Source: Naegleria gruberi | Taxonomy: Eukaryota | DNA length: 64,000 nt | Assembly (NCBI GenBank): GCA_000004985.1 | Contig: GG738895.1 | Direction: 5' to 3' (one strand) | In this document: positions 47,461 to 49,644 of the stretch, in pieces | Position numbering within the stretch: the first letter of the stretch is position 1 | How the letters are laid out: each line of letters begins with the position of its first letter | Notes under the pieces: generated by a model | Told to the model about the DNA's origin: nothing | Databases searched by the model: none | The model's input: the letters and a program-made list of their open reading frames with translations, nothing else | Program-made: the position numbers and the translations under genes

Positions 47461-49644
47461 ATGAAATCAACATCTCTATTGATATCTTTGGTTCTTTTTA
47501 TTTCCATCTGCATTTCCACACATGTCAATTGTGCATGGAACTTGCCACCACTCGGTTCTCCAAGAATACTCTTTGCAGATTCGTCCTACTTGACGAAACT
47601 AAAGTCTGACATGGCAAAGCCAACCAATTACGCCACTTCTTTCAAAAACTTTGTTAATAGTGGAATTTCTGGTGGCGGATCCGTCTATCTATTCGAAGCA
47701 TGGCACTCAGCTCTATTATTCATGGTCACAGGACAAGTTTCCTATTGTAACTATGCAGTTCAAAATATAGATTCCATTGTAGCTCAAGAAGAATCCATCA
47801 TTGCCAGTGGGAACATTCCATCCATTGCAGGAGATAGTTATCTTGATGTTGGATATGGTTTGCATAATATAATGACTGTCTATGATTGGTGTCGAGCACA
47901 AACAAGTCAATCTCAAAGAAATCGATGGACAAATTATGCCAATCAAGCAGTTTCTAATATTTGGAATTGCTCAACAGCGACATGGGGTGGTAAAGATGCT
48001 GCATGGTCATGTTGGTCGGTGGATAATCCAGGAAACAATTATTATTACTCCTTTTTGAGAGCAACCATGATGGTTGGGTTAGCCACATACGGAGAGAATG
48101 CAAGTGCTGATATGTGGTTGAGACAATTTAGAAATGTCAAGATTGGAAATCAATTAATTCCATATTTTAATGGAGAGCTCAAGACAGGTGGCAGTTTGGA
48201 AGGAACTGGGTATGGTATTTCACATAAGGAATTGTTTAATTTGTATATTTGGTGGCAATTGTCAACTGGTGAAAATATTGCTGACCTGACTTCACACACT
48301 TACAATTCGTTACAATGGATTTTGCATCAAATGGTTCCACAATTGGATGCATTGGCAAATATTGGCGATCAAGCACGTGATTCCTCTGCATCTTTCTATG
48401 ATTATCATCGTCATTACATTATTGCTCTTTGCTATTTATATCCAAAATCCAAATTAGCAAAATCAGCTAAAATTCTATTATCCAAATCGAGTGTTCCTCA
48501 AATGACAAGCGGTTTCAATACTTATATAGATTACATTTATGATATCAGTTCTATTGAAACAGTTCCACTCAATTCAACCTATATTACAACTTCATTCAGG
48601 GGAGATTCAACTGGAACTCTTGCCTTACGTTCAAGTTGGGATTCTGATGCAGTTTATGCTAATTTAGTTTGTGGACCACTTGTAGAATCTCATGCACATC
48701 AAGATCAGGGAAGTTTTATTCTATATCACAAGGGTTGGTTGGCATATGATCAGAATTTCAATAGTCATTCTGGAATTCAACAAATGAATCACTATCATAA
48801 TTTGGTTAGAATTGTTAGTGACAATGAGATTATTCTTCAATCTGGAGGATCTCCTTGTAATATGAGTGCACTTTCTGATAATTCTGTTTATTCCTATGCA
48901 CTTTCACTTGTTACTCCTCTATATGATAGTAATAATTACAATTCGAAAGGTTTAGTTACCAAAGTCGAAAGAGAATTTGTATTTATCAAACCAAGTACAT
49001 TTGTTGTTTTTGATAGAGTGGCAACAAAGACTAATTCCAAAGCTAAAAGAATACTTTCGCTTAATTTTATGGATAAACCAAGCTATTCCAATGGAAATTT
49101 GGTTTTTAATTCAAAGAGTTCCATTACTGTTAAAACTCTTTCTCCAACCTCAAATTTAAACGTTTCCATTATTGATTGGAAAACTGAAGATTCTGATAAC
49201 AATGCTGGATATAGAGTTGACTATTTGGATACTTCATCATTAGATTCCACTAACTTTTTACAAGTAATTTCAATCAACTCTTCTGTTGCCTCATCCATTA
49301 GGGATGATGTTAGTGGAAAAATAGGAGCAACAATTAGTTTGAATGATGGACGAAAGGTAACTGTTCGATTCAATACTGCCAGTACTGGTGGATCAATCGT
49401 GGTTATTTCCAATAAGCAAACAACATTGGTGAATGAGGATCTCACAACCAGTAAGCAAGCTCTTGGTGTGGGAGAGGTAATAGTTCCACTTTCATCACCT
49501 AAACCTGTTCCAATTTCTTCTGTGCAACCAGGTCAAAAATCAAGCAAAGCATTTACATCAACAAGAGTTAATTCTAGTCGGCCATCTCAAATGAGTAGTT
49601 TGTTCTTCATTATTGTAATAATTGGTTTCATTTTAATAAATTAA
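47461..49644 (+). CDS. Secreted heparinase II/III-like (polysaccharide lyase-like) protein with C-terminal Ser/Pro stalk and hydrophobic tail
   Basis: 727-aa intronless ORF with signal-like MKSTSLLISLVLFISICISTHVNC. It has an alpha/alpha-toroid-like N-terminal half, then ESHAHQDQGSFILYHKGWLAYDQN, which is typical of the heparinase II/III C-terminal domain. The C-terminus reads SSPKPVPISSVQPGQKSS...LFFIIVIIGFILIN. Confidence 0.7.
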   Translation: MKSTSLLISLVLFISICISTHVNCAWNLPPLGSPRILFADSSYLTKLKSDMAKPTNYATSFKNFVNSGISGGGSVYLFEAWHSALLFMVTGQVSYCNYAVQNIDSIVAQEESIIASGNIPSIAGDSYLDVGYGLHNIMTVYDWCRAQTSQSQRNRWTNYANQAVSNIWNCSTATWGGKDAAWSCWSVDNPGNNYYYSFLRATMMVGLATYGENASADMWLRQFRNVKIGNQLIPYFNGELKTGGSLEGTGYGISHKELFNLYIWWQLSTGENIADLTSHTYNSLQWILHQMVPQLDALANIGDQARDSSASFYDYHRHYIIALCYLYPKSKLAKSAKILLSKSSVPQMTSGFNTYIDYIYDISSIETVPLNSTYITTSFRGDSTGTLALRSSWDSDAVYANLVCGPLVESHAHQDQGSFILYHKGWLAYDQNFNSHSGIQQMNHYHNLVRIVSDNEIILQSGGSPCNMSALSDNSVYSYALSLVTPLYDSNNYNSKGLVTKVEREFVFIKPSTFVVFDRVATKTNSKAKRILSLNFMDKPSYSNGNLVFNSKSSITVKTLSPTSNLNVSIIDWKTEDSDNNAGYRVDYLDTSSLDSTNFLQVISINSSVASSIRDDVSGKIGATISLNDGRKVTVRFNTASTGGSIVVISNKQTTLVNEDLTTSKQALGVGEVIVPLSSPKPVPISSVQPGQKSSKAFTSTRVNSSRPSQMSSLFFIIVIIGFILIN

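What the first reader, a model, noticed from the sequence alone, without database searches (positions are those of the whole stretch)
47461..49644. Second intronless bacterial-type polysaccharide-lyase-like gene with the same signal/stalk/anchor layout
The protein combines an alpha-toroid-like N-terminal half with the heparinase II/III C-terminal signature (ESHAHQDQGSFILYHKGWLAYDQN). This is a combination known from bacterial heparin, heparan, alginate and related lyases. Like 35925..39326, it begins with a signal-like peptide and ends with a Ser/Pro stalk plus a hydrophobic tail (LFFIIVIIGFILIN). Two such genes sit 8 kb apart and share the same C-terminal design. This suggests a common domestication route for acquired surface enzymes.
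Basis: partly seen in the sequence, partly recalled or inferred. Interest (0 to 1): 0.5.

Follow-up and report, generated by a model that had tools for sequence, protein, structure and literature searches.

The report
Bacterial lyase-like gene adopted by Naegleria
The amoeba Naegleria gruberi carries an intronless gene taken from freshwater bacteria; it encodes a heparinase II/III-type polysaccharide-lyase-like enzyme that has gained a eukaryotic secretion signal and a probable GPI membrane anchor, a clear but not unprecedented case of a grazer acquiring a sugar-polymer-cutting enzyme from its prey.

The parts
47461..49644 (+). Complete intronless CDS (727 aa plus stop) of the heparinase II/III-like protein; identical to the N. 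gruberi 'predicted protein' P0001
47461..47532 (+). Eukaryotic-type N-terminal signal peptide (aa 1-24, MKSTSLLISLVLFISICISTHVNC). It replaces the bacterial signal or lipoprotein leader and is not aligned to the bacterial homologues
   Evidence: pLDDT <50
47539..48576 (+). alpha/alpha toroid domain (aa 27-372), colinear with the bacterial homologues
48034..48039 (+). Asn192-Asn193 within NPGNNYYY. Candidate carboxylate neutraliser, by analogy with PL35 Asn191/Asn192. At least 90% conserved in the family
   Evidence: mapped by motif and spacing; inference
48211..48213 (+). Tyr251 in the invariant EGTGYG motif at the start of a helix. Candidate catalytic Tyr (compare HepII Tyr257, PL35 Tyr246)
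   Evidence: inference
48196..48198 (+). Leu246. This position is Arg in all 42 aligned bacterial homologues and Leu in both Naegleria species
48577..49479 (+). beta-sandwich domain (aa 373-673), the heparinase II/III C-terminal type
48691..48705 (+). His411-Ala-His413-Gln-Asp415. His411 aligns directly with the catalytic His406 of heparinase II and His413 with the Zn ligand His408. Asp415 corresponds to the PL35 Mn ligand Asp405 by motif register
48748..48750 (+). Asp430, aligned with the HepII Zn ligand Asp425; invariant in the family
48796..48801 (+). His446-Asn447, an invariant HN motif. Candidate fourth metal ligand (compare HepII His451, PL35 His457)
   Evidence: the alignment here is ambiguous, so this is inference
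49480..49599 (+). Naegleria-specific Ser/Pro/Thr/Lys-rich disordered stalk (aa 674-713), including a candidate GPI omega region VNSS (aa 703-706). It is conserved with N. lovaniensis (z=12) and absent from the bacteria
49600..49641 (+). Terminal 14-residue hydrophobic tail LFFIIVIIGFILIN that ends the protein; candidate GPI-attachment signal
35925..39326 (-). Comparator, not part of the gene: a 1133-aa beta-helix protein with an analogous signal, S/P stalk and hydrophobic tail. Its tail is not homologous to that of 47461..49644
4224..4799 (+). Comparator: an unrelated 191-aa ORF with a signal peptide and a terminal hydrophobic tail. It shows that the layout is generic in this genome

Best explanation
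The gene came from a bacterium and entered the Naegleria lineage before N. gruberi and N. lovaniensis diverged. It encodes a two-domain enzyme of the heparinase II/III / oligo-alginate-lyase structural clan, with an alpha/alpha toroid and a beta-sandwich. After transfer, the bacterial leader was replaced by a eukaryotic signal peptide. A 54-residue Ser/Pro-rich disordered stalk ending in a short hydrophobic tail was added, and this reads as a GPI-attachment signal. The mature protein would therefore sit on the outer face of the plasma membrane, which is also the lumenal face of a phagosome after engulfment. The likeliest activity is beta-elimination cleavage of a uronic-acid-containing bacterial exopolysaccharide or capsule. 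In this scheme Asn192/Asn193 neutralise the carboxylate, Tyr251 and His411 act as acid and base, and a metal ion is held by His413, Asp415, Asp430 and His446. This would help the amoeba graze on biofilm- and floc-forming bacteria. What is shown: the ORF, its bacterial ancestry, the fold, residue conservation, and the Naegleria-specific termini. What is inferred: GPI anchoring, lyase chemistry, the substrate and the ecological role.
Confidence: 0.6

Rival explanations
1. The protein keeps the fold but is no longer a lyase. It would act as a surface carbohydrate-binding or adhesion protein for prey polysaccharide, or have no function.
For: Evolution is accelerated: N. gruberi differs at 16.7% of highly conserved positions, against 2.9% in bacteria. 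The strictly conserved Arg246 is lost in both Naegleria species, along with Gly135, Gly184, Gly242, Trp380, Gly383 and Arg559. The N. lovaniensis ortholog is decaying and N. fowleri lacks it.
Against: All candidate catalytic and metal-binding residues (N192, N193, Y251, H411, H413, D415, D430, H446) are retained. The 727-codon ORF is intact and has fully host-adapted codon usage. The AF2 model is confident across the core.
Confidence: 0.2
2. It is a uronate C5-epimerase rather than a lyase. Like dermatan-sulfate epimerase, it would abstract and re-add the C5 proton without cleaving the chain.
Against: Sequence profiles connect the family to lyases only (HepII, PL35, HepIII, Atu3025). By spacing, the position matching the second catalytic His (HepII His202 and, from my own knowledge, DS-epi1 His205) appears to be Asn/Tyr in this family (NNYYY). 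A two-base epimerase mechanism is therefore less likely; this is inference. Lyases such as AlgL are also encoded in biosynthesis loci (established knowledge).
Confidence: 0.1
3. The C-terminal hydrophobic stretch is a true transmembrane anchor (type I protein) or is irrelevant, and the protein is simply secreted. It would not be a GPI signal.
For: No GPI predictor was run and the Naegleria GPI machinery was not checked. A hydrophobic C-terminus could also hold a protein in the membrane.
Against: The stretch has only 13-14 hydrophobic residues and is followed by a single Asn and the stop codon. It has no cytoplasmic or basic residues. It is preceded by small residues and a short polar spacer, which is the classical GPI pattern. 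The same pattern appears in three unrelated ORFs in the window and in the paralogue P0121.
Confidence: 0.2
4. The gene is bacterial contamination or an assembly artefact in the N. gruberi assembly.
For: It is intronless and 44-53% identical to bacterial proteins.
Against: It lies inside a 333-kb scaffold between eukaryotic genes. Its GC is 35.5% and GC3 0.25, like its neighbours, whereas its bacterial sister has GC3 0.67. An ortholog sits on an 836-kb N. lovaniensis contig, has spliceosomal introns, and shares the Naegleria-specific stalk and tail.
Confidence: 0.01

Closest known systems
Heparinase II (HepB, PL21) of Pedobacter heparinus, PDB 2FUQ/3E7J
   Different: Identity is only 15-17%. 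The NCBIfam HepB equivalog scores 24 bits against a cutoff of 600. By spacing, the position of the second catalytic His (His202) appears not to be His. HepII is bacterial and periplasmic, not a eukaryotic surface protein, and its substrate (heparin/heparan sulfate) is unlikely to be relevant to a soil amoeba.
PL35 glycosaminoglycan lyases GAGase II/VII (PDB 8KHV/8KHW; PMC12088678)
   Different: Identity is about 16%. Only the beta-domain is detectable by sequence. The toroid assignment is inferred. No substrate is known for the present family.
PL15 oligo-alginate lyase Atu3025 (3A0O) and exo-heparinase (6LJA); PL17, PL39, PL40 and PL12 lyases
Human dermatan-sulfate epimerase 1 (6HZN)
   Different: Identity is 12% and there is no sequence-level link. 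It is a metazoan Golgi enzyme and not the source of this gene. The Naegleria gene is 44-53% identical to bacterial proteins.
Other bacterium-to-protist transfers of polysaccharide-degrading enzymes (for example the CAZyme gains reported for Diplonema papillatum, PMC10161547, seen by title and abstract only)
   Same: A phagotrophic or osmotrophic protist acquires a bacterial carbohydrate-active enzyme and equips it for secretion.
   Different: This is a different enzyme family and recipient. Here the added GPI-type tail and the later intron gain and decay in a sister species are visible.

Membership tests
Pfam Hepar_II_III_C (PF07940) | Score at or above the gathering threshold (24 bits) for the C-terminal beta-sandwich domain | tested here: not met
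   The query scores 19.5 bits, E 7.7e-4, over only aa 379-425. Of 44 family members, 24 hit the model and none does so significantly (best E 1.6e-4).
Heparinase II/III-like structural clan (PL12/15/17/21/35/39/40 type) | N-terminal (alpha/alpha)n toroid followed by an antiparallel beta-sandwich | tested here: met
Heparinase II/III-like structural clan | Catalytic His on the beta-domain in an (N/S)-H-x-H-x-D motif, with a metal site formed by His, Asp and His | tested here: met
   Direct HMMER alignment of SHAHQD (410-415) with HepII NHQHQD (405-410), and of Asp430 with Asp425. These residues are invariant in the family. The fourth ligand, His446, is assigned by conservation only.
Heparinase II/III-like structural clan | Catalytic Tyr and an Asn (or His) neutraliser on the toroid, about 54 residues apart | tested here: inconclusive
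   N192/N193 and the invariant Y251 are 58-59 residues apart and sit at helix starts. No residue-level structural superposition was available, and the toroid profile finds nothing in the PDB by sequence.
NCBIfam HepB (NF045571, PL21) / HepC (NF045573, PL12) equivalogs | Whole-protein score above the curated cutoff (600 / 700 bits) | tested here: not met
   24 bits and 13.4 bits.
CAZy PL families (dbCAN classification) | Significant match to a CAZy family or subfamily HMM | not testable with these tools
   No dbCAN/CAZy library was available. The distance to the structural representatives of PL12, 15, 17, 21, 33, 35, 39 and 40 equals the distance between families. PL families without a solved structure cannot be excluded.
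Polysaccharide lyase (enzymatic definition) | Beta-elimination of a uronate-containing polysaccharide giving a 4,5-unsaturated product | not testable with these tools
   This needs a biochemical assay. No member of this family has been characterised, as far as the literature searches showed.
Horizontally transferred gene (bacterium to eukaryote) | The eukaryotic sequences are nested within a broad bacterial radiation, other eukaryotes lack the gene, and it is integrated in a eukaryotic genomic context | tested here: met
   NJ tree with 100/100 bootstraps. Only two Naegleria species appear among the eukaryote-labelled hits. Eukaryotic neighbours, host codon usage and introns in the ortholog. 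The tree is a distance tree, not maximum likelihood, and eukaryotic sampling depends on the database.
GPI-anchored protein | N-terminal signal peptide plus a C-terminal signal: a small omega residue, a 5-10 residue polar spacer, and a 10-20 residue hydrophobic tail that ends the protein | tested here: met
   The sequence pattern is met: the signal is aa 1-24, followed by VNSS (703-706), RPSQMSS, and LFFIIVIIGFILI-N. This was only a heuristic check. No GPI predictor was run and the GPI transamidase pathway was not examined.
Shared C-terminal module with gene 35925..39326 | Sequence similarity of the stalk and anchor segments beyond what composition explains | tested here: not met
   The local alignment score is 39, against 27 +/- 5.4 for shuffles (z=2.2). 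There is no DNA match beyond 8-mers.

The most novel reading that the evidence does not exclude
The roughly 1000-member bacterial family to which this gene belongs is an uncharacterised polysaccharide lyase (or uronate-modifying) family of its own. It would be partly tied to XrtA/PEP-CTERM floc exopolysaccharide loci. Naegleria would have captured one copy and converted it into a GPI-anchored surface or phagosomal enzyme that dissolves the matrix of its biofilm prey, which would make it a eukaryotic, membrane-tethered 'anti-biofilm' lyase with a new specificity.
Probability: 0.3. Interest if true: 0.6.

Novelty: new variant of a known kind. Interest (0 to 1): 0.4.

Why it matters
This is a clean, datable example of a bacterivorous amoeba taking a carbohydrate-active enzyme from the kind of bacteria it eats and re-equipping it for the eukaryotic secretory pathway. 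The acquisition came before the N. gruberi/N. lovaniensis split. Codon usage was then fully adapted to the host, introns appeared in one lineage, and the gene decayed or was lost in the N. lovaniensis/N. fowleri lineage.

It also points to a large bacterial family, with relatives in at least 458 species genomes, that current Pfam and NCBIfam models do not capture. That family is as far from PL12, 15, 17, 21, 35 and 39 as those families are from each other. If it is enzymatically active, it would be a candidate new lyase family acting on freshwater or activated-sludge exopolysaccharides. It would also show how amoebae attack biofilm matrices. The gene is already in public databases as a "predicted protein", and bacterium-to-protist CAZyme transfers are known, so the surprise to a specialist is moderate.

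Tried and rejected
(1) I searched the PDB sequences with a profile of the toroid domain alone (A2), hoping for a residue-level alignment of the catalytic Tyr and Asn. It returned no hits, so the mapping rests on motif and spacing.

(2) An afdb50 fold search would have shown other eukaryotic structural relatives, but that library was not available.

(3) I looked for a strongly conserved gene neighbourhood around the bacterial homologues. The two look-ups and the clustering of 773 ORFs from 78 loci show no universal neighbour. Only a minority of about 15 loci have XrtA-type exopolysaccharide genes. My crude longest-ORF caller also produced spurious antisense ORFs in the high-GC genomes (components 1, 5 and 7), which I discarded.

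(4) I tested for synteny between the N. lovaniensis locus (+/-10 kb) and the window and found none.

(5) Literature searches for Naegleria plus heparinase or lyase HGT, for heparinase II plus PEP-CTERM, and for new PL families found nothing specific to this gene or family.

(6) I considered contamination and rejected it.

(7) I considered eukaryote-to-bacteria transfer and rejected it. The bacterial distribution is broad and spans several phyla, and the Naegleria clade is nested within it.

(8) I considered a shared C-terminal module between the two genes and rejected it.

Full report
**1. The observation**

The window is AT-rich (31-38% GC) and dense with ORFs on both strands. Positions 47461..49644 (+) hold a single 727-codon ORF from ATG to stop. 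The tail LFFIIVIIGFILIN is residues 714-727. Only two segments of the protein are strongly hydrophobic: residues about 2-24 and the last 14 residues. The comparison gene at 35925..39326 is real (1133 aa) and has an analogous layout, but it is on the minus strand.

**2. Source organism and relatives**

- The protein is 100% identical to a "predicted protein" of Naegleria gruberi on a 333,733-bp scaffold.
- Nearby ORFs are typical eukaryotic genes: a DEAD-box helicase exon, an F-box/Ras GTPase and LRR proteins. An S49 peptidase is also present.
- The only other eukaryote-labelled relative in a 5.8-billion-protein collection is N. lovaniensis C9374_009676 (58-61% identity).
- Every other hit is bacterial or from a metagenome, at 42-53% identity over about 88% of the query. 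There were 1350 hits at E<=1e-3, the best at 1e-208.
- A scan of one genome per bacterial species found relatives in 458 species. Most are Burkholderiales (Rhizobacter, Ideonella, Aquabacterium, Piscinibacter, Rhodoferax), Sphingomonadales, Myxococcota and Anaerolineales, which are freshwater, soil, groundwater and activated-sludge organisms.
- Searching with the N. lovaniensis protein found no N. fowleri or other eukaryotic homologue.

**3. Horizontal transfer**

- Residues 27-673 are colinear with the bacterial proteins, with only 1-5-residue indels. Residues 1-26 and 674-727 have no bacterial counterpart.
- In a neighbour-joining tree (66 sequences, 608 columns, Kimura distances) the two Naegleria sequences are monophyletic in 100/100 bootstraps.
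- They are sister to the metagenome protein P0003 in 100/100 bootstraps, and they lie deep inside the bacterial radiation.
- P0003 comes from a Hainich groundwater contig with 56% GC (GC3 0.67). Upstream of its called start it has an Ala-Pro linker of the type seen in bacterial lipoproteins.
- The Naegleria gene has 35.5% GC and GC3 0.25. Its RSCU correlates at 0.93 with the other ORFs of the window, as well as any native gene does.
- The N. lovaniensis ortholog (locus L082) is interrupted by two introns with canonical GTATGT...AG boundaries: 10163-10369 (207 nt) and 10809-10961 (153 nt). N. gruberi lacks both.
- That ortholog shares the Naegleria-specific stalk and tail (alignment z=12 against shuffles).

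The gene is therefore not contamination. It entered the lineage before the two species split and has since been fully adapted to the host's composition. There is no synteny between the two species within +/-10 kb.

**4. What the protein is**

- Curated sequence models fail. Pfam Hepar_II_III_C gives 19.5 bits against a cutoff of 24, over 47 residues only. NCBIfam HepB gives 24 bits against 600.
- None of the 44 aligned family members reaches significance for any Pfam family.
- A profile of the family does connect it to solved lyases: heparinase II/PL21 at E 2.8e-18, PL35 GAGase II at 1e-10, heparinase III/PL12 at 3.5e-6, and PL15 Atu3025 at 5e-4.
- An AlphaFold2 model built on the 44-sequence alignment is confident (pLDDT 83, pTM 0.82). 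Helices span 41-359 and strands 378-661. Residues 1-23 and 671-727 are disordered.
- Foldseek matches are PL15 Atu3025 (E 1e-22, TM 0.67), PL15 exoHep, PL21, PL39, PL35, DS-epimerase 1, PL17, PL33 and PL12.

The family is therefore best described as an unclassified branch of the heparinase II/III / oligo-alginate-lyase clan.

**5. Active site**

- The phmmer alignment to heparinase II places SHAHQD (410-415) on NHQHQD (405-410). His411 then corresponds to the catalytic His406, His413 to the zinc ligand His408, and Asp430 to the zinc ligand Asp425 (chain numbering plus 25).
- PMC12088678 lists a triad for every family of the clan: an Asn (and/or His) neutraliser, a Tyr about 53-57 residues later, and a His on the beta-domain 130-166 residues after that. 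For PL35 it also lists a Mn2+ site made of His403, Asp405, Asp421 and His457.
- The present family has Asn192-Asn193 (NPGNNYYY), Tyr251 in an invariant EGTGYG motif at the start of a helix, and His411. The spacings are 58 and 160. It also has His413, Asp415, Asp430 and His446.
- All of these are invariant or at least 90% conserved in the family, and N. gruberi keeps them.
- The toroid residues are assigned by spacing and fold only, because a toroid-only profile finds nothing in the PDB by sequence.
- The Asn-Asn doublet without an adjacent His resembles PL35 GAGase II rather than the alginate lyases. That hints weakly at a non-alginate uronate substrate. This is inference.

**6. Signs of change after transfer**

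- N. gruberi differs at 37 of 222 positions (16.7%) that are at least 90% conserved in the bacterial sequences. The bacterial leave-one-out mean is 2.9%, and the maximum is 11%, in the sister P0003.
- The most striking change is Arg246 to Leu, five residues before Tyr251. This position is Arg in all 42 bacterial sequences and Leu in both Naegleria species.
- The 5' third of the N. lovaniensis copy carries several lesions. There is an in-frame TGA at the conserved Trp156 codon. A deletion of about 27 codons with a frameshift follows PRIIF. The signal peptide is in a different frame.
- The annotated N. lovaniensis product therefore starts only at the equivalent of Met203. That copy is probably a young pseudogene, unless these are assembly errors.

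**7. The termini**

- The bacterial proteins start with their own leaders, and some have lipoprotein-style linkers. They end about 5-10 residues after the last strand.
- Naegleria replaced the leader with MKSTSLLISLVLFISICISTHVNC.
- It also appended 54 residues. These form a Ser/Pro/Thr/Lys-rich segment that is disordered in the model, ending ...TRVNSS-RPSQMSS-LFFIIVIIGFILIN.
- Small residues, a 7-residue polar spacer and a 14-residue hydrophobic tail that ends the protein, with no cytoplasmic residues, form the classical GPI-attachment pattern. I read it as a GPI signal rather than a transmembrane anchor. No GPI predictor was available.
- The same pattern occurs in gene 35925..39326, in its N. 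gruberi paralogue P0121, and in an unrelated 191-aa ORF at 4224..4799.
- The tails of the two large genes are not similar beyond composition (z=2.2; no DNA match).

The shared "design" is the genome's general way of making surface proteins, not a shared module.

**8. The second gene**

- The beta-helix protein has only a N. gruberi paralogue (46% identity) in the word-seeded search.
- An exhaustive HMMER search finds 28 representatives at E<=1e-30. The closest (31-34% identity, full length) look like low-GC protist proteins with S/P stalks.
- Others (27-32% identity) look bacterial, and one has a T9SS-like C-terminal domain.
- A bacterial origin is possible but much older and far less clear than for 47461..49644. 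The "common domestication route" is therefore only weakly supported.

**9. Function**

- Most bacterial loci show no conserved neighbourhood.
- About 15 of 78 loci place the homologue among XrtA/PEP-CTERM exopolysaccharide genes. These are the chain-length determinant TIGR03007 (434 bits, above its cutoff), a Wzy_C-type ligase, a polysaccharide deacetylase and a PaaK-like ligase.
- By analogy with AlgL in alginate operons (established knowledge), the bacterial enzymes may trim or degrade a self-made acidic exopolysaccharide.
- My best explanation, at about 0.6 confidence, is as follows. Naegleria displays the acquired enzyme on its surface through a GPI anchor. That face becomes the inside of the phagosome after engulfment. 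There the enzyme cleaves uronate-containing exopolysaccharide or capsule of biofilm- and floc-forming prey by beta-elimination.
- The rivals are loss of catalysis with a binding role retained (0.2), C5-epimerase chemistry (0.1), and transmembrane anchoring or simple secretion instead of GPI anchoring (0.2 for that sub-question). Contamination is excluded.

**10. Verdict**

The family assignment needs qualifying, because the gene belongs to the clan but to no curated family, and activity is untested. The idea of a shared C-terminal module does not hold. The gene is a well-documented old bacterium-to-Naegleria transfer of an enzyme from a large uncharacterised family. It is of moderate interest as a candidate new lyase family and as an example of how an acquired gene is fitted to a eukaryote.

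Noticed in passing
L082:9400-11953 (N. lovaniensis contig PYSW02000003.1): The N. lovaniensis ortholog has two GTATGT..AG introns (10163-10369 and 10809-10961) that N. gruberi lacks. Its 5' third carries an in-frame TGA at the conserved Trp156 codon (9860-9862), a deletion of about 27 codons with a frameshift, and a signal peptide in another frame. This shows intron gain after the transfer, followed by probable pseudogenisation. The annotated product starts at the equivalent of Met203.
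   Followed up: yes
window 35925-39326 (-): The exact sequence of the 1133-aa beta-helix protein is not in the protein collection, so the public gene model probably differs. It has a N. gruberi paralogue (P0121, 46% identity), protist-like relatives at 31-34% and probable bacterial relatives at 27-32%. Residues 1038-1069 show a weak similarity to the end of pectate lyase PelN (E 3e-8).
   Followed up: partly
window 4224-4799 (+): This 191-aa ORF has no Pfam match. It has a signal peptide and a terminal hydrophobic tail (...NAASLETSASLGVIVLSVLFSLVSF), which makes it a third GPI-signal-like protein in the window.
   Followed up: partly
window 43214-45235 (+): This ORF encodes a 673-aa protein with a strong Peptidase_S49 (SppA-type) domain (E 5.6e-65). 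The family is mainly bacterial and organellar. It lies 2 kb upstream of the lyase-like gene. Its origin was not examined.
   Followed up: no
window 57696-59141 (+): The codon usage of this LRR-repeat protein departs from the rest of the window (RSCU r=0.54, GC3 0.18). This is probably a repeat-composition effect.
   Followed up: partly
L015 and L039 (contig JAZJZJ010000028.1); also the Aquabacterium F1F2 MAG (L013, L028, L035): Some bacterial genomes carry two or three paralogues of the family. In one case two copies lie about 11 kb apart on the same contig, next to exopolysaccharide genes.
   Followed up: no
P0002 (814 aa, NCBI metagenome-assembled protein): This bacterial homologue contains an internal tandem duplication of about 120 residues of the toroid region: the segment YDWCHALLTP...GGGSREGTGYG occurs twice.
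   Followed up: no
L002:1-6300 (Ideonella lacteola): The Ideonella homologue lies near a GH114 (endo-alpha-1,4-polygalactosaminidase family) gene, a beta-helix protein and ricin-lectin proteins. These may form a loose cluster of secreted exopolysaccharide-active proteins.
   Followed up: no
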